Shown: positions 16,517 to 31,930 of the stretch, piece after piece
How positions within the stretch are numbered: position 1 is the stretch's first letter
Layout of the letters: each line of letters opens with the position of its first letter
Assembly: GCA_030668875.1 (NCBI GenBank)
Contig: DAOVER010000007.1
Coordinates: 59,645 to 91,644 of the forward strand
Length of the DNA: 32,000 bases
Source of the DNA: Candidatus Heimdallarchaeota archaeon
Lineage (GTDB): Archaea; Asgardarchaeota; Heimdallarchaeia; Heimdallarchaeales; Heimdallarchaeaceae
Reading direction: 5' to 3'
Made by a program: the position numbers and the translations under genes
Notes under the pieces: generated by a model
What the model saw: only the letters and a program-made list of their open reading frames with translations
The model's database searches: none
What the model was told of the DNA's origin: nothing

Positions 16517-17542
16517 TCAAATAATAAGATCGGAAGGTTCACCACATTTTTTGCACGATGCATTTTTACCAAGATTTTTCTTTTTTATTGAATAACCCGC
16601 TCTTTCTACAAGGGTAACACCGCAGTTTTGGCAAATGGTAGAGTTGATTTCAGAATAAGGTAGATTTCCAGTATATACATATTTCATCCCGACAGCTTCT
16701 GCAATTCTGCTAGCTTCTAGAACAGTTTCAACAGGTGTAGGAGGAACATCTTGCATTTTATAATGAGGATAGAACCTGCTGAAGTGAATTGGTACTTTAT
16801 CATTCATAGAATTAAGAACCCATTCAGCAAATTGTTTGATTTCCTCTTTATTGTCGTTGTAACCTGGAATTAAAAGCATTGTGAGCTCAATATGGATGCC
16901 TTCTGAAAACATGAGAAGAACATTTTCTTTAATTTGATCTAAACCAGGAAAATGAGTTACCTTTCTATAGAAATCTTGATTAAAAGCTTTAATATCTATA
17001 TTGGCAGCGTCTATGATACCAAACAGTTCAGAAAGTGGTTCCTTATTGATTAAACCATTGGAAACTAATACGTTTCCTATATTATTTTCGTGAGCTAATT
17101 TTCCAGTATCTTTTATCCATTCAAAATTGATTAATGGTTCGTTATATGTATAAGCGATTGTATCACAATTATTATTTCTAACTTTTTCTAACGCTTGTAT
17201 TGAAGTGATATTTATCATATTGTTGCTTTCAGCTGATATTTGACTAATAGACCAGTTCTGACAATAATCACAATGTAAATTGCATCCTGCTGTTCCAAAA
17301 CTCATTGTAGAAGTTCCTGGTTTATAATGGTATATTGGTTTCTTCTCAATTGGATCGTCGTGAACTGAAGTAAACCGGTTATATCCTAATGCAAACAGTT
17401 TCCCATCTATATTTTTTCTAGACTTGCAGTTTCCAAGTTGACCTGGTTGTATTTTACACAATCGAGGACACAAAAGACAGTGAACATTCCCCCCGTCAAG
17501 TTTTTTGTAAAATTCTGCTTCGTGTAGACTCACTAAAATCAC
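16517..17542 (-). CDS. amrS: AmmeMemoRadiSam system radical SAM enzyme
   Basis: CLLCPRLC...GNCKSRKN, DPIEKKPIYHY, GCNLHCDYCQNWSISQ, YTYNEP, HFSRFYPHYKM, YVYTGN, CQNCG. Confidence 0.93.
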   Translation of the reverse strand: MILVSLHEAEFYKKLDGGNVHCLLCPRLCKIQPGQLGNCKSRKNIDGKLFALGYNRFTSVHDDPIEKKPIYHYKPGTSTMSFGTAGCNLHCDYCQNWSISQISAESNNMINITSIQALEKVRNNNCDTIAYTYNEPLINFEWIKDTGKLAHENNIGNVLVSNGLINKEPLSELFGIIDAANIDIKAFNQDFYRKVTHFPGLDQIKENVLLMFSEGIHIELTMLLIPGYNDNKEEIKQFAEWVLNSMNDKVPIHFSRFYPHYKMQDVPPTPVETVLEASRIAEAVGMKYVYTGNLPYSEINSTICQNCGVTLVERAGYSIKKKNLGKNASCKKCGEPSDLII

Positions 17543-27449: not shown

Positions 27450-27866
27450 ATGTCAGCTAAGTATTTTTGTGCAAATTGTGGATCTATAGTAGAACAAGGG
27501 ATAAAATTCTGTGCTAATTGTGGGACTGCTGTAAATGCTCAACAACCCCCTCAAAAACAAGCAGCTCCAGCAGCTCAACCTTATACTCCTGCTCAACCTT
27601 ATACTCCTGCACCAATATATGCTCCATCGCAACAAGGCGCTCCTGTAGGTGTATCTCCTCATAATAGAACTGTAACACTATTATTGTGTATTTTTCTAGG
27701 TTATATTGGAATTCATAAATTCTACGTAGGAAAAACAGGAGAAGGAATTGCGTATCTCTTATTATCATGGACAGGTATTCCAGCATTCATAGCTTTTATT
27801 GAGATATTCGTTATTGCTGCTGGTAGTTTCAAAGATGAAAGAGGTTTACCTGTTCTAACTTGGTGA
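27450..27866 (+). CDS. Zinc-ribbon + Pro/Gln/Ala linker + TM2 domain membrane protein
   Basis: CANCG...FCANCG; TM2 signature LLLCIFLGYIGIHKFYVGKTGEGIAYLL; GGTGA RBS upstream. Confidence 0.9.
   Translation: MSAKYFCANCGSIVEQGIKFCANCGTAVNAQQPPQKQAAPAAQPYTPAQPYTPAPIYAPSQQGAPVGVSPHNRTVTLLLCIFLGYIGIHKFYVGKTGEGIAYLLLSWTGIPAFIAFIEIFVIAAGSFKDERGLPVLTW
27573..27610 (+). repeat. Perfect 18-bp tandem duplication (GCTCAACCTTATACTCCT x2) encoding AQPYTP-AQPYTP
   Basis: Read directly at 27573-27590 and 27591-27608. Confidence 0.9.
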
Positions 27867-28228: not shown

Positions 28229-29419
28229 CTAAATTTCTTCCATTATGCTCTTTACAGTTTCAATAAATGTTAATATTTGATCTTCAGTATTATAAATGTG
28301 GGTAGACAATTGTACTAATGAATTCTGCCCTATTTCTTCCATAAACAGATGCGAACATAGAGCTCCACTTCGAACCAATATCTTCTGAATATCTTCCAAG
28401 ATTATTGCAATGTCATGAGCATCAATAGATTCGCTTCTGAAAGAGAGAATGGGACCATTTTCAATGCTGTCTAGATTAATCAATTCAATATTTTGAATGC
28501 TCTTCATCCCCTCAACAAGTTGTCTTCTAAGCTTCTTTTCATGATTGTAAATCAACTCTAACCCAATATTATTGAGAAGTTGTAAACTTTTCGATAACCC
28601 TACAACTGCTGCAATATTAATAGTTCCTGTTTCGAATTTACTATTCCAGTTACTGAGTTTGTAATTGCTTTTGCTTAAAGAAACAATGGAGCCTCCACCA
28701 ACTAACAATGGTTTCATTTCCTCTATAATTTCTTCTGATACGAATTGAAATGCTATACTTTGTGGTCCTAGTGCGCCATTTGTACTTGATGATAGTACTA
28801 CATCGGGCATGACCTTGCTAAAATCAATACTTTCATGCCCAACAAGGTAACTCATATCCATAACAGTACGTATATTGTTGTCTCTGCATAATTTTGAGAT
28901 ACTCTCCCAATTGCGTTTTATACCCATACCTAGAGTTAAAGCTGAAAAGAGAAAAATAGATGAATCTTTTGAAATTCTTTCTTGAAGCACATCTAGAAGA
29001 TTTTGCTCATCATTCATCGATAAATAGCTTATTTTAGAATCAGTAAGTTCACTGAATTTCATAGCTGGTCCAATCAGAGAATGATCTTCTAAAACACTCA
29101 TAATTATTTTACTCTCTTTAACTGGAGAAATTGAGAATAAAGAGTTAAGTACCGCAGTTTCGCGCGAGGGTAGAAAGGATAATTGTTTTGGGTTAATTCT
29201 GAAAATTTGCGCAATGTTTTCCCTTTCTGTTTCTAAAACTTTTGAAGCTTTTATGGCATATTTATGAGTTCCTCTATTCACTCCTCCCCCCTCAGAGTTG
29301 TAATAATCACACATTGCTTTCAAGGTCGTTTTAGGCATTTTCCCTATAGTTGCAGAATCTAAATAGATTTCTTCCTTTGGAATGTCAAATTCGTCTTGAA
29401 TTCTAGAGGCTAAGTTCAT
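28229..29419 (-). CDS. SufS/cysteine-desulfurase-like class V aminotransferase-fold protein lacking the canonical PLP lysine (start reassigned to ATG 29419)
   Basis: YLDSA, EDHS, PLLVGGGS, KFETGT-x-NI and VRSGALCSH match SufS/CsdA. The SGHK motif reads SSTN. The start is supported by the paralog fragment alignment. Confidence 0.88.
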   Translation of the reverse strand: MNLASRIQDEFDIPKEEIYLDSATIGKMPKTTLKAMCDYYNSEGGGVNRGTHKYAIKASKVLETERENIAQIFRINPKQLSFLPSRETAVLNSLFSISPVKESKIIMSVLEDHSLIGPAMKFSELTDSKISYLSMNDEQNLLDVLQERISKDSSIFLFSALTLGMGIKRNWESISKLCRDNNIRTVMDMSYLVGHESIDFSKVMPDVVLSSSTNGALGPQSIAFQFVSEEIIEEMKPLLVGGGSIVSLSKSNYKLSNWNSKFETGTINIAAVVGLSKSLQLLNNIGLELIYNHEKKLRRQLVEGMKSIQNIELINLDSIENGPILSFRSESIDAHDIAIILEDIQKILVRSGALCSHLFMEEIGQNSLVQLSTHIYNTEDQILTFIETVKSIMEEI

Positions 29420-29504
29420 AAACAATTGCTTGAAGAGACATTCAGTTATTAACATTTGTTTTACACCACCATTTTTTTATATATTTTCCAGAAGCGTAGA
29501 TAAG

Positions 29505-29960
29505 ATGGCTACCAAAGCAGAGGATTTTGAAGACAACATTAGGAAATCTATTGAGAAGATTATCACAAGATACGCAATCCTGTTACCTAATTTATCAAAA
29601 TATGAAGACAGCAAGGTTAACCGTGAATTATGGGATATAAGATCAGATTTAGAATATATGATAGTAGAGATAAAGCATTTTCTCAAGAAAGATCTCATCG
29701 AAGAAAGGTGGCAAAAAATTTTTACAAATGAGTTAAAAGGCACTGGATCAAAAACCAAAGCAATTCCAATGCTTAGAGAATATTCTAAAACAGAGAATGA
29801 TTTAATTGAGCTATTTACCAAGGATAAAGAGAAATGTTATAGATACCTATGGAAATTGAAAGAGACAATAACTGTTGTTCTAGCAGCTTTTCCAACGGAA
29901 AAGTTCTCGTTGAAGAATGGCAAGCTCGTAAAAGACAGTGAGGAAATTTTCGAAATATAA
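29505..29960 (+). CDS. Hypothetical all-alpha-helical protein (151 aa, start reassigned to ATG 29505)
   Basis: The track's TTG start lies only 10 bp from the divergent SufS-like start and adds a non-protein-like leader. ATG 29505 follows a TTTATATA box by about 25 nt. Confidence 0.8.
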   Translation: MATKAEDFEDNIRKSIEKIITRYAILLPNLSKYEDSKVNRELWDIRSDLEYMIVEIKHFLKKDLIEERWQKIFTNELKGTGSKTKAIPMLREYSKTENDLIELFTKDKEKCYRYLWKLKETITVVLAAFPTEKFSLKNGKLVKDSEEIFEI

Positions 29961-30015
29961 TCTGTGATTACATCTAACAGTAAGTATAAAATAAGAGAAA
30001 GAGTGTTTTAATATA

Positions 30016-30510
30016 ATGAGCATGAGTCCAACTAGAAAGGAATTTCCCGACGATAAAGATAATATCAGGGAAGCTATGAAACTAGAACGCTTCGTATGTC
30101 CTACCAGAGAAATAAATTACCCTTGTGTGATCTGTAAAGATTGCCAGTTAATGGATTTGAAGCAGTTTGCTTTAAAGAATGGATTCATCGAAAAAACAAA
30201 AAATTCCAGTTTGATATCCCTTATATTAGAAATGCGTGATCCTTTTGATGATATGTTGTTAAAACGTTTAACTCTATCTTTAGCAGATGCTACAGGGATT
30301 GTTCAGAAAGAACCAGAACCTGGTTTTTCCATTACTTTCTATTTATCAGAAGCTTTACTTGAAAAAATAGAAGAAAAAGAGAAATTAGTGGAATTTATTG
30401 CAGACTTTCAGCATAGATTCCTATCTGAAACCATCGCAGCAAGAAGCGCATTAAATAAATGGGAAAGATCGACTACTCAAAGATTAATCTGGGATATGAG
30501 TATAAAATAA
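30016..30510 (+). CDS. ARPC4 (Arp2/3 complex subunit 4, p20)-like protein
   Basis: Near full-length by-eye match to human ARPC4 as recalled: LERF/LENF, N-x-P, IEKTKNSSLIS/IEGSINSVRVS, I-x2-KEP-x-PGFSITF/ILRRKPVEGYDISF, KEKLVEFI/KHKLVDFV, LN-x3-R/VN-x3-R. Length 164 aa vs 168 aa. Confidence 0.82.
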   Translation: MSMSPTRKEFPDDKDNIREAMKLERFVCPTREINYPCVICKDCQLMDLKQFALKNGFIEKTKNSSLISLILEMRDPFDDMLLKRLTLSLADATGIVQKEPEPGFSITFYLSEALLEKIEEKEKLVEFIADFQHRFLSETIAARSALNKWERSTTQRLIWDMSIK

Positions 30511-30541: not shown

Positions 30542-31684
30542 TCATGATACACTTTTCCAATATATTCCCAACTTATCAGCATGGTTTTTTACATTAAACA
30601 TTTCTGTTGTTGTGGGTCTTCTATTAATTTCTGGAAATTCTCCCCTAAGAATTTTATAATCTGGATGATATTGAGCCATAATATTAACAAGAGGTTTTTT
30701 CAGATTCTCTGCAACCCAATCTAATATCGGAATTGAACAACATTCTGTATGTATTGGCATAACTAAGTGACGAATTATATACTCACCACTTCCTCGTTCT
30801 TCTATCATCTTCATGTTTCTCTTTAACGCATCCCAGTAGACAGGTGCTTTAGAATATTTGTTTGCACATTCATTATTAGCATACTTCATATCAGGTAACC
30901 AAATATCGAAAATATCAACTATGAGTTTCATGCTTACATCAGTAAGATACATGTTACTGTTCCACAACATAGGCAGATGGACTTGTGTTTCCAAAAATGA
31001 TTCCAAAATTACATGTAAATTAGGTGTTGGTTCTCCACCTACAAAATTAATGTTTCTGGCATGCTGTTTTCCAAGAGAATAATACATTTGAGCTAAATCT
31101 TTTGGTTCTGTGCCTCTTCCGCGAAATCTTTCTAAACTGAATTCATGACTTATATCGAAATTTTGGCAAAACGAACAATTCATTGTACATCCGTAGAAGA
31201 AGATGGTTCCACTAGGCACAATAGGGCTTTCTTCACCCATGTGTATAAAACCCGAAGAAACGTACGCTTTATCATCTACACCGCATTTCCCAATTTTGCC
31301 TTCTTTTCTATTAATCTTACATCTATTCTCACAAAATTCACAAGCTGAAAGTATATCTTTTAAAATAGTTAGTTTTAGCTTTAGATAGTTCTCTTTTTCT
31401 AGTGTTTCTGGTTTAACTTTAGAGAACACCTCTTTTTCAATCTCAGCTAAAGGTAAGACTTGTTTCTCCGTTATCCATTCTTTGAATTTCGGATAATAAT
31501 GTTCATGTATCTTAAGGAGTTCTTCTTGATCAAGATTTTCCTTAAAAGGTGTATGAAAAAGCCTTGCTAGCTTATATCGAGGTAAACGCTTTTTCTTAAA
31601 TATGTCTCTGTAATTATTTAATCTATCCTTTAACTCATGTTGCTGCCAAACAGTCATTGAATCTCGTCTCATTAAAGGTAACAT
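30542..31684 (-). CDS. PflX-family radical SAM protein (probable start ATG 31684; the track starts at 31699)
   Basis: CEFCENRCKINR...GKC, HMGEE-x-PIVPSGTIFF-x-GCTMNCSFCQNFDIS, NINFVGGEPTP, WNSNMY, DMKYAN-x2-CA, IRHLVMP, NIMAQY-x-P. Confidence 0.92.
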   Translation of the reverse strand: MLPLMRRDSMTVWQQHELKDRLNNYRDIFKKKRLPRYKLARLFHTPFKENLDQEELLKIHEHYYPKFKEWITEKQVLPLAEIEKEVFSKVKPETLEKENYLKLKLTILKDILSACEFCENRCKINRKEGKIGKCGVDDKAYVSSGFIHMGEESPIVPSGTIFFYGCTMNCSFCQNFDISHEFSLERFRGRGTEPKDLAQMYYSLGKQHARNINFVGGEPTPNLHVILESFLETQVHLPMLWNSNMYLTDVSMKLIVDIFDIWLPDMKYANNECANKYSKAPVYWDALKRNMKMIEERGSGEYIIRHLVMPIHTECCSIPILDWVAENLKKPLVNIMAQYHPDYKILRGEFPEINRRPTTTEMFNVKNHADKLGIYWKSVS

Positions 31685-31930
31685 GGTTAAATATACCATA
31701 TAACTATGAGATATTTATTACTTTTTGAATTTTCGACCTGTTGAGAAGAATTTTTACTAAATGGGGCTAAAACTGGAACAAGTGTAAATTTTTCTTCTTC
31801 ATAAAAGGTACATTTTATTACATATTTTCATGATGTCTATTTGTCTTCTTGTCTTCTTAGACAAAGCTAGGTACATGTCGTGCTTAGAGGTCATGATATA
31901 GGGCGAAGATACTCTATACTCACTCTTAGT

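What the first reader, a model, noticed from the sequence alone, without database searches (positions are those of the whole stretch)
30016..30510. Full-length Arp2/3 subunit ARPC4-like gene in an archaeal locus
Seen: the 164-aa protein matches ARPC4 (recalled human sequence) collinearly from the N-terminus (IREAMKLERF vs LQAALCLENF) through the central sheet (IEKTKNSSLISL vs IEGSINSVRVSI) to the C-terminal helix (KEKLVEFIADF...E......LN...R vs KHKLVDFVIHF...E......VN...R). Established: ARPC4 and ARPC2 form the clamp core of the eukaryotic actin-branching complex, and ARPC4-domain proteins have been reported among Asgard eukaryotic-signature proteins. Inference: this may be a homodimeric ancestor of the ARPC2/ARPC4 clamp. 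No actin gene lies in the window.
Basis: partly seen in the sequence, partly recalled or inferred. Interest (0 to 1): 0.8.

Follow-up and report, generated by a model that had tools for sequence, protein, structure and literature searches.

The report
Heimdallarchaeal ARPC4-like protein, predicted homodimer
This is a real, strongly conserved gene of a Heimdall-group Asgard archaeon that encodes a full-length relative of ARPC4, a core subunit of the eukaryotic actin-branching Arp2/3 complex; the family is already listed for Asgard archaea. It carries four cysteines that eukaryotic ARPC4 lacks, is predicted to pair with itself, and has no tested function.

Summary
ORF 30016-30510 (+) encodes 164 aa that match Pfam ARPC4 above the curated cut-off (35.1 vs 22.2 bits, E 1.3e-8). 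Its AlphaFold model matches solved ARPC4 chains over almost the full length (Z 14.3, rmsd 3.5 A, 137 residues); ARPC2 is the next-best fold. The gene is under strong purifying selection (dN/dS 0.02-0.05) and has a conserved TATA-like element upstream.

It is an orthologue (77% identity) of a hypothetical protein of Heimdallarchaeota AB_125. The literature already names an Arp2/3 subunit-4 homologue as an Asgard eukaryotic signature protein, and this scan has met the family before on other DNA. The bare finding is therefore already known.

- The family is single-copy and patchy (95 of 399 Asgard genomes).
- No ARPC2, ARPC3 or ARPC5 was detected in this genome.
- All 24 archaeal members aligned keep four cysteines in the N-terminal arm (two with one ligand shifted), and all five eukaryotic ARPC4 lack them. 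This suggests a metal site, probably Zn.
- A homodimer prediction scored ipSAE 0.85 against a best control of 0.00. Its C-terminal helices are antiparallel, as in the solved ARPC2/ARPC4 pair, so the pass may come from that likeness.

Actin binding is inferred only.

The parts
30016..30510 (+). Coding sequence of the 164-aa ARPC4-like protein (P0001), stop codon included
   Evidence: ORF list and translation. Pfam ARPC4 35.1 bits. Fold match to ARPC4 with Z 14.3. dN/dS 0.02-0.05 against the closest orthologues.
30097..30144 (+). Four-cysteine motif C28-P-x7-C37-x2-C40-x2-C43 in the N-terminal arm; a putative metal site, Zn more likely than Fe-S
   Evidence: Invariant in 17 Heimdallarchaeaceae sequences. 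C28 and C43 are invariant and C37 and C40 at least 90% conserved in 24 diverse archaeal members. Absent from all five eukaryotic ARPC4 in the joint alignment. The identity of the metal was not tested.
30178..30483 (+). Core region matched by the Pfam ARPC4 model (residues 55-156): beta-sheet, helix alpha1 and the start of the C-terminal helix
30241..30300 (+). Helix alpha1 (residues 76-95), part of the predicted homodimer interface
   Evidence: Secondary structure of the AF2 model; interface list of the complex prediction.
30364..30507 (+). Residues 117-164, including the C-terminal helices; predicted to pack antiparallel against the same helix of the second copy (pairs 142-149 and 138-153)
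   Evidence: The antiparallel C-terminal helices of ARPC2 and ARPC4 are described in PMC9894260.
29968..29993 (+). Conserved upstream element TTACATCTAACAGTAAGTATAAAATA with a TATA-like box centred about 27 nt before the ATG; probably the gene's own promoter (inferred)
   Evidence: The same element lies at the same distance in most loci of the same genus, although synonymous sites in the gene are saturated.
29505..29960 (+). Conserved upstream neighbour, a 151-aa helical protein of unknown family (context; a possible lineage-specific partner)
   Evidence: Immediately upstream on the same strand in 19 of the 20 distinct family-f1 genomes whose locus was fetched (the remaining one, G034, was not fetched), and not found next to the gene in the other Asgard families examined. 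Helical-bundle model with pLDDT 88 and no convincing PDB match.

Best explanation
The ORF is a functional, full-length archaeal member of the ARPC4 (p20-Arc) protein family. It is the Heimdallarchaeaceae orthologue of the 'Arp2/3 subunit 4' eukaryotic signature protein already catalogued in Asgard archaea (shown; about 0.95). It is not a subunit of an Arp2/3 complex: no ARPC2, ARPC3 or ARPC5 is detectable in the genome, and the gene is single-copy. Its N-terminal arm carries a family-wide four-cysteine site that eukaryotic ARPC4 lacks. This site most likely holds a structural metal (inferred; Zn about 0.6, Fe-S about 0.2). The protein most likely works as a symmetric homodimer. Helix alpha1 and the C-terminal helix of one copy would pack antiparallel on those of the other, which is the geometry of the eukaryotic ARPC2/ARPC4 heterodimer (model-supported; about 0.55). 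By analogy with isolated ARPC2/ARPC4, which binds the side of actin filaments, the dimer would be a small scaffold on the filaments formed by the genome's two eukaryote-like actins (pure inference; about 0.3-0.35).
For: Family membership:
- Pfam ARPC4 35.1 bits against a cut-off of 22.2.
- Foldseek's top 9 hits are all ARPC4 chains, E 1e-7 to 4e-5, TM 0.64-0.68.
- VIA-align gives Z 14.3, rmsd 3.5 A, 137 aligned residues; ARPC2 follows at Z 9 and everything else is below 5.

Real gene:
- Orthologues of 161-166 aa at 60-95% identity.
- dN/dS 0.02-0.05 and a conserved TATA-like upstream element.

Known family:
- 77% identity to HeimAB125_10170.
- Literature: PMC7444086 and PMC7522288; listed as catalogue-matched in a 2026 preprint.

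No complex partners:
- PF04045, PF04062 and PF04699 give no match at E<=1 in the 92%-complete genome.
- The archaeal profile finds one copy only.

Cysteine site.

Homodimer:
- ipSAE 0.85/0.86/0.85, best of 3 controls 0.00.
- The mark was reached by 20 of 30 proteins solved as pairs of one chain and 1 of 23 solved as single chains.
- Runs agree in at least 98% of contacts; partner pLDDT at least 87.
- The interface is symmetric: residues 76-95, 117-127 and 134-164, with pairs 142-149 and 138-153, meaning antiparallel C-terminal helices.

Eukaryotic precedent: ARPC2 and ARPC4 have antiparallel C-terminal helices, and isolated ARPC2/ARPC4 binds actin filaments with micromolar affinity (PMC9894260).

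Actins: two are present in the genome, about 650 bits to a solved 'HC1 actin' and about 540 bits to eukaryotic actins.
Against: - The dimer pass may come from the model's memory of the solved ARPC2/ARPC4 pair. My own alignment and two zinc ions were used, so the calibration holds only roughly.
- Predicted interface positions are not more conserved than the rest of the core, although buried core residues confound that comparison.
- The family is absent from large actin-bearing Asgard groups (f20 0/135, f12 0/19, f19 0/14, f7 0/12), so it is not a general requirement of Asgard actin.
- No cytoskeletal gene is a conserved neighbour.
- The genome's ARP-like paralogue is confined to two families and is not co-distributed.
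- Nothing here tests actin binding or which metal is bound.
Confidence: 0.55

Rival explanations
1. The ARPC4 fold has a job in archaea that is unrelated to actin, for example a metal- or redox-sensing adaptor or a platform working with regulatory domains. On this view it was recruited into the Arp2/3 complex only on the eukaryotic stem.
For: - The family is patchily distributed while actin is widespread in Asgard archaea (PMC7444086).
- No other Arp2/3 subunit is detected.
- Neighbours differ by lineage and are never cytoskeletal: a helical unknown in Heimdallarchaeaceae, a Roadblock/LC7 protein in family f5, and fibrillarin/Nop5-like genes in Njord-type lineages, the latter identified by eye only.
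- In small-genome lineages the domain is fused to an ATC-hydrolase/V4R-like cysteine-rich domain (P0063).
- The four-cysteine site is conserved more strictly than any other feature.
Against: The only characterised relatives, ARPC4 and ARPC2, are actin-filament binders (PMC9894260). The dimer geometry used for that function is predicted to be retained. The genome does encode eukaryote-like actins.
Confidence: 0.27
2. In Heimdallarchaeaceae the protein works as a heteromer with the 151-aa helical protein encoded 55 bp upstream, which would make them a two-gene module.
For: The helical protein lies immediately upstream on the same strand in 19 of the 20 distinct family-f1 genomes whose locus was fetched, down to 61-63% identity of the ARPC4-like protein. 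Adjacent locus tags GPJ51_04520 and GPJ51_04525 in a public genome show the same pairing.
Against: - The neighbour is not found beside the gene in any other Asgard family that has the ARPC4-like gene.
- It evolves much faster (44-47% identity where the ARPC4-like protein keeps about 80%).
- The ARPC4-like gene has its own conserved promoter-like element.
- The neighbour's model is a generic helical bundle: best Z 8.6 to the Not5/CNOT3 N-terminal domain, within the noise range for helical proteins.
- The pair was not submitted to complex prediction, because the single job went to the homodimer.
Confidence: 0.15
3. The similarity is chance, or the ORF is not a real gene.
For: None found. Pairwise identity to eukaryotic ARPC4 is only about 20%.
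Against: The profile hit is above the curated cut-off. The full-length fold match stands far above the background. There are dozens of orthologues of conserved length. dN/dS is 0.02-0.05.
Confidence: 0.01

Closest known systems
Eukaryotic ARPC4 (p20-Arc, Pfam PF05856), subunit of the seven-subunit Arp2/3 complex
   Same: Same length class (164 vs about 168 aa). Collinear from the N-terminal helix to the C-terminal helix. Same alpha/beta globular domain and long C-terminal helix (Z 14.3). Shared motifs: the N-S strand, P-x-x-G-(F/Y)-x-I-(S/T)-F, and the (L/V)-N-x-x-x-R helix. The predicted pairing through antiparallel C-terminal helices resembles that of ARPC4 with ARPC2.
   Different: About 20% identity. 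A four-cysteine site stands where eukaryotes have S-x-x-V-E-R-H-N-K-P-E-V-E. A conserved N-K-W-x-R stands where eukaryotes have N-A-R-A-R. No ARPC2, ARPC3 or ARPC5 is detected in the genome. It is predicted to pair with itself rather than with ARPC2.
Asgard 'Arp2/3 complex subunit 4' eukaryotic signature protein (for example HeimAB125_10170 of Heimdallarchaeota AB_125, and K9W46_00190 of Ca. Heimdallarchaeum endolithica)
   Same: Orthologues at 77% and 62% identity, with the same length, the same cysteine motif and the same upstream neighbour.
   Different: Nothing of substance. This is another species of the same genus-level group. The public records call these 'hypothetical protein'.
ARPC2 (p34-Arc, PF04045) globular domains
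   Same: Second-best structural match (Z 8-9). The ARPC4 globular domain is described as homologous to the ARPC2 globular domains (PMC9894260).
   Different: ARPC2 has two such domains in about 300 aa. There is no sequence-level match, and no ARPC2 gene in this genome.
Three-part ARPC4-like fusion of small-genome Asgard lineages
   Same: Same ARPC4-like module with the same four-cysteine motif.
   Different: There the module sits between an ATC-hydrolase/V4R-like domain and a small C-terminal Cys/His module. Here it stands alone.

Membership tests
ARPC4 protein family (Pfam PF05856) | Profile HMM score above the curated gathering threshold | tested here: met
   35.1 bits against 22.2, E 1.3e-8. 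The same hit was found in the six-frame genome search.
ARPC4 protein family (Pfam PF05856) | ARPC4 fold: N-terminal helix, alpha/beta globular domain, long C-terminal helix | tested here: met
   AF2 model with pLDDT 84. Foldseek's top 9 hits are all ARPC4, TM 0.64-0.68. VIA gives Z 14.3, rmsd 3.5 A, 137 residues, model 10-148 against chain 7-155.
ARPC4 protein family (Pfam PF05856) | Full-length collinearity with eukaryotic ARPC4 | tested here: met
   MAFFT alignment with five eukaryotic sequences. The Pfam match itself covers only residues 55-156.
Arp2/3 complex (seven-subunit actin nucleator) | Co-occurrence with ARPC2, ARPC3 and ARPC5 | tested here: not met
   No match to PF04045, PF04062 or PF04699 at E<=1 in a genome that is 92% complete. 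For PF04045 and PF04699 the control genomes (all prokaryotes) gave no match either, so sensitivity is unproven.
Arp2/3 complex (seven-subunit actin nucleator) | Arp2 and Arp3 orthologues | tested here: inconclusive
   The genome has two actins and one 490-aa ARP-like paralogue. The best solved relatives of the paralogue are an archaeal actin and Arp1, not Arp2 or Arp3. It occurs only in families f1 and f2. No phylogeny of the ARPs was made.
Arp2/3 complex (seven-subunit actin nucleator) | ARPC4 pairs with ARPC2 through antiparallel C-terminal helices | tested here: inconclusive
   No ARPC2 is present. A self-pair with the same helix geometry is predicted: ipSAE 0.85, best of 3 controls 0.00; the mark was reached by 20 of 30 solved one-chain pairs and 1 of 23 single chains; at least 98% contact agreement; pLDDT at least 87. 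This may reflect likeness to the solved heterodimer.
Arp2/3 complex (seven-subunit actin nucleator) | Binding to the side of an actin filament | not testable with these tools
Filament binding needs biochemistry.
Asgard ARPC4-like signature protein family | Orthology to the published Heimdallarchaeota protein, and the four-cysteine motif | tested here: met
   77% identity over 99% of the length to HeimAB125_10170. The motif is conserved across 24 diverse archaeal members.
Cys4 metal-binding site (Zn knuckle or Fe-S) | Four conserved Cys close together in sequence; bound metal | tested here: inconclusive
   The four Cys are conserved. C3-C4 spacing varies from 2 to 5 and C1-C2 from 7 to 9 residues. 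In two divergent members one ligand position has moved.

The most novel reading that the evidence does not exclude
The stand-alone, four-cysteine ARPC4-like protein is a metal-bearing homodimer that binds the side of Asgard actin filaments. That would make it the pre-duplication form of the ARPC2/ARPC4 clamp on which the Arp2/3 complex was later built. Eukaryotes would then have lost the metal site when the N-terminal arm was taken over for contacts inside the complex.
Probability: 0.22. Interest if true: 0.75.

Novelty: already known. Interest (0 to 1): 0.38.

Why it matters
The origin of the Arp2/3 complex is an open piece of the eukaryogenesis puzzle. Asgard archaea have actin, profilin and gelsolin-like regulators that have been studied biochemically, but the ARPC4-like protein is only a catalogue entry. 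This gene does not change that picture, because it is an orthologue of the known entry. The analysis does turn the entry into a concrete, cheap experiment on a 164-aa soluble protein with three predictions:
- It forms a dimer through antiparallel C-terminal helices.
- It carries a stoichiometric metal on four cysteines.
- It possibly binds filaments of the same organism's actin.

If all three held, the ARPC2/ARPC4 clamp would have a living model of its single-gene ancestor.

Tried and rejected
1. Interface conservation. Predicted dimer-interface positions are not more conserved than other positions of residues 55-164 (mean 0.40 vs 0.46 in the diverse alignment). Without solvent accessibility, buried core residues dominate the comparison, so it is uninformative either way.

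2. Expression. No RNA holder was listed for the locus; the four runs that hold most of the stretch are marine-sediment DNA runs of one study.

3. Co-distribution with the genome's ARP-like paralogue (P0138). Orthologues occur only in f1 (17/29) and f2 (1/1), far narrower than the ARPC4-like family, so there is no support for a shared module.

4. Upstream neighbour as ARPC3 or ARPC5. There is no Pfam hit. Foldseek found nothing at E<=0.001. In the wide VIA search, ARPC3 and ARPC5 are not among the 50 rows shown, and the best Z of 8.6 is within the noise for helical bundles. That is inconclusive, but it gives no support.

5. Direction of evolution. In the maximum-likelihood tree eukaryotic ARPC4 is one clade (100/100), and the non-Heimdallarchaeaceae archaeal sequences form one side of a 99/100 branch. 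With three groups and no outgroup, this says nothing about who descends from whom. The apparent nesting of eukaryotes inside the Heimdallarchaeaceae group has weak support (86/74).

6. Profilin Pfam search in the genome found nothing. Asgard profilins are too divergent for that model, and the controls gave no match, so no conclusion is drawn.

7. Distinguishing Zn from Fe-S. Zinc rode along in the complex job, but ligands are not scored, so it says nothing about the metal.

Full report
**The gene**

The ORF at 30016-30510 on the + strand encodes 164 residues. Fifty-five bases of AT-rich spacer separate it from a co-oriented 151-codon ORF (29505-29960). A convergent radical-SAM gene ends 32 bases downstream. 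The window is G+C-poor (about 34%). It lies on contig 34 of a 3.23-Mb, 92%-complete genome.

**Family membership**

- hmmscan against Pfam gives one family, ARPC4 (PF05856): E 1.3e-8, 35.1 bits against a curated cut-off of 22.2, covering residues 55-156 on model positions 60-163 of 167.
- phmmer against PDB sequences puts fission-yeast and bovine ARPC4 first, with E 0.004-0.008.
- An AlphaFold2 model built on 17 orthologues has mean pLDDT 84 and pTM 0.80.
- Foldseek's nine best PDB matches are all ARPC4 chains (E 1e-7 to 4e-5, TM 0.64-0.68), followed by ARPC2 chains.
- Re-alignment with VIA-align gives Z 14.3, rmsd 3.5 A and 137 aligned residues, model 10-148 against bovine ARPC4 7-155. ARPC2 follows at Z 8-9 and everything else is below Z 5.
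- The N-terminal helix that Pfam does not cover is therefore part of the match.

**A real, constrained gene**

The word-indexed search found 50 relatives of 161-166 aa (apart from one 119-aa fragment) at 60-95% identity, all carrying a precomputed ARPC4 domain. Those with names are 'hypothetical protein' of Candidatus Heimdallarchaeota or Heimdallarchaeaceae, including HeimAB125_10170 at 77% identity.

Against the two closest orthologous loci, dN/dS is 0.02 and 0.05. Against the others, synonymous sites are saturated while the proteins stay about 80% identical.

The spacer upstream holds TTACATCTAACAGTAAGTATAAAATA at 29968-29993. This element is conserved at the same distance in most loci of the genus, and its TATA-like box is centred about 27 nt before the ATG. 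By inference, the gene has its own promoter and a leaderless or nearly leaderless transcript.

**What is already known**

- Akil et al. 2020 (PMC7444086) state that some Heimdallarchaeota may contain a distant homologue of ARP2/3 subunit 4.
- PMC7522288 lists Arp2/3 complex subunit 4 among Asgard actin-binding proteins.
- A 2026 preprint counts ARPC4 among catalogue-matched Asgard-eukaryote clusters.
- Earlier notes of this scan found the family on other DNA, including a fused Odinarchaeial form.

The finding as titled is therefore already known. I found no paper in the searchable library that characterises the protein.

**Distribution**

A profile of the Heimdallarchaeaceae sequences, searched against 1.84 billion representatives, found only 32 proteins at E<=0.001:
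- archaeal proteins of 144-191 aa;
- a few longer proteins (361 and 383 aa, plus a 248-aa one with a low-complexity N-terminal extension that groups with the eukaryotes) and some fragments;
- eukaryotic ARPC4, at the weak end of the list.

Names recovered for clusters include Wukong-, Njord-, Frey- and Sigyn-archaeota as well as Heimdallarchaeota.

A profile of 24 diverse archaeal members found the family in 95 of 399 genomes of the phylum:
- Nearly always one copy per genome.
- Near-universal in some families (f1 26/29, f5 21/22, f14 6/6, f27 4/4).
- Absent from others (f20 0/135, f12 0/19, f19 0/14, f7 0/12).

The genomes are incomplete and related to one another, so these are counts, not statistics.

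**The rest of the Arp2/3 machinery**

- Pfam models of ARPC2, ARPC3 and ARPC5 find nothing at E<=1 in this genome. For two of these models the prokaryotic control genomes gave no match either.
- The genome has two actins very close to eukaryotic actin, and a 490-aa ARP-like paralogue whose best solved relatives are an archaeal actin and Arp1.
- Orthologues of that paralogue occur only in families f1 and f2, so it does not travel with the ARPC4-like gene.

The protein belongs to the ARPC4 protein family but is not part of an Arp2/3 complex.

**The cysteine site**

C28, C37, C40 and C43 are invariant in the family alignment. Across the 24 diverse archaeal members, C28 and C43 are invariant and C37 and C40 are at least 90% conserved.

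In the joint alignment, all five eukaryotic sequences have serine and P-(E/H/L)-(V/I)-E at these positions and no cysteines.

Spacing is C-x7-9-C-x2-C-x2-5-C. In two divergent members one ligand position is replaced and another cysteine appears nearby. That flexibility fits a structural Zn site better than a canonical ferredoxin motif, but Fe-S is not excluded, and nothing here measures a metal. The new point is that it is family-wide in archaea and absent in eukaryotes.

**Self-association**

Two copies, given with a 38-row alignment and with two zinc ions riding along, gave these results:
- ipSAE 0.85, 0.86 and 0.85 in three runs, against 0.00 for the best of three controls.
- The mark was reached in calibration by 20 of 30 proteins solved as pairs of one chain and 1 of 23 solved as single chains.
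- The runs agree in at least 98% of contacts, and the partner's pLDDT is at least 87.
- The interface is symmetric: residues 76-95, 117-127 and 134-164.
- The lowest-error pairs include 142 with 149 and 138 with 153. These pairs have a constant sum, meaning the C-terminal helices run antiparallel about a two-fold axis.

In the solved complex, the antiparallel C-terminal helices of ARPC2 and ARPC4 form the axis of the complex. Isolated ARPC2/ARPC4 binds actin filaments with micromolar affinity and provides 60% of the surface buried on the mother filament (PMC9894260).

The model therefore supports, but does not show, a homodimer with the geometry of the eukaryotic heterodimer. Because that heterodimer is solved, the pass may come from likeness. 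My alignment and the ligand also differ from the calibration. Interface positions are not more conserved than the rest, which is uninformative.

**Neighbours**

The 151-aa upstream protein is found immediately upstream in 19 of the 20 distinct family-f1 genomes whose locus was fetched, including Ca. Heimdallarchaeum endolithica at 62% identity of the ARPC4-like protein. It was not found beside the gene in the other Asgard families examined. It diverges faster than the ARPC4-like protein. It models as a helical bundle with no convincing solved relative.

In family f5 the upstream gene is instead a Roadblock/LC7 protein. In some other lineages, fibrillarin-like and Nop5-like genes lie nearby; these were recognised by eye only. 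A class-V aminotransferase-like gene lies divergently upstream both here and in H. endolithica. No neighbour is cytoskeletal.

**Tree**

Eukaryotic ARPC4 forms one clade on a long branch. The non-Heimdallarchaeaceae archaeal sequences form one side of a well-supported branch. The Heimdallarchaeaceae type sits closest to the junction. The tree is unrooted, so it is compatible with the 'ancestor' reading but does not show it.

**Verdict**

The gene itself is an orthologue of a catalogued Asgard signature protein, so novelty is low.

The most likely mechanism is a metal-stabilised homodimer that uses the ARPC2/ARPC4-type helix pairing. Its link to actin is inferred only, and a non-actin role remains a serious rival.

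Noticed in passing
window 29505-29960 (+): A 151-aa helical protein of no known family (P0052). It is conserved immediately upstream of the ARPC4-like gene throughout Heimdallarchaeaceae, but not in the other Asgard families examined that have the gene. It evolves faster than its neighbour.
   Followed up: partly
L028 3424-3852, L033 3427-3834, L034 4560-4988, L045 3428-3856: In another family of the same class (f5), the gene immediately upstream of the ARPC4-like gene on the same strand is a 135-142-aa Roadblock/LC7 protein (PF03259, E 1e-8 to 4e-10 for the two scanned).
   Followed up: partly
L004 1492-2964 (-), genome contig C29: A 490-aa actin-related paralogue with a Cys-rich N-terminal extension of about 75 residues (C16, C41, C44). 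Its orthologues are confined to families f1 (17/29) and f2. Its best solved relatives are an archaeal actin and Arp1.
   Followed up: partly
window 28229-29455 (-): A class-V aminotransferase (SufS-like) gene lies divergently upstream of the gene pair, and the same arrangement is kept in Ca. Heimdallarchaeum endolithica (L005 3203-4387). A separate first-reader note says it lacks the PLP lysine; I did not check that.
   Followed up: no
P0063 (383 aa) and the 373-394-aa open frames in L030, L031, L043, L044: Fused forms of the ARPC4-like module. One has an N-terminal ATC-hydrolase/V4R-like domain plus a C-terminal Cys/His module. Another (P0072 type, Njord-labelled) has a C-terminal extension of about 200 residues with no Pfam match.
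   Followed up: partly
L024 2017-3166, L035 3266-4027, L037 1395-3331, L038 2549-3235: In several Njord-type lineages the ARPC4-like gene lies next to, or within 1-2 kb of, fibrillarin-like and Nop5-like genes. These were recognised by eye from their N-terminal sequences, not scanned.
   Followed up: no
model of P0001, rows 23-36: Below ARPC4 and ARPC2, the next structural neighbours (Z 3.8-4.7) are homodimeric type III secretion chaperones (CesT, SycT, Spa15) and YbjN-family proteins. These matches are too weak to claim kinship.
   Followed up: no
window 27450-27866 (+): A small protein with an N-terminal zinc ribbon, a proline/glutamine-rich linker and a TM2 domain (PF05154, E 2.6e-18).
   Followed up: no
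window 30542-31699 (-) and 16517-17542 (-): Two radical-SAM enzymes lie in the window, one convergent with the ARPC4-like gene. An earlier scan note on a related genome describes the same neighbourhood. No functional link to the cysteine motif was shown.
   Followed up: no
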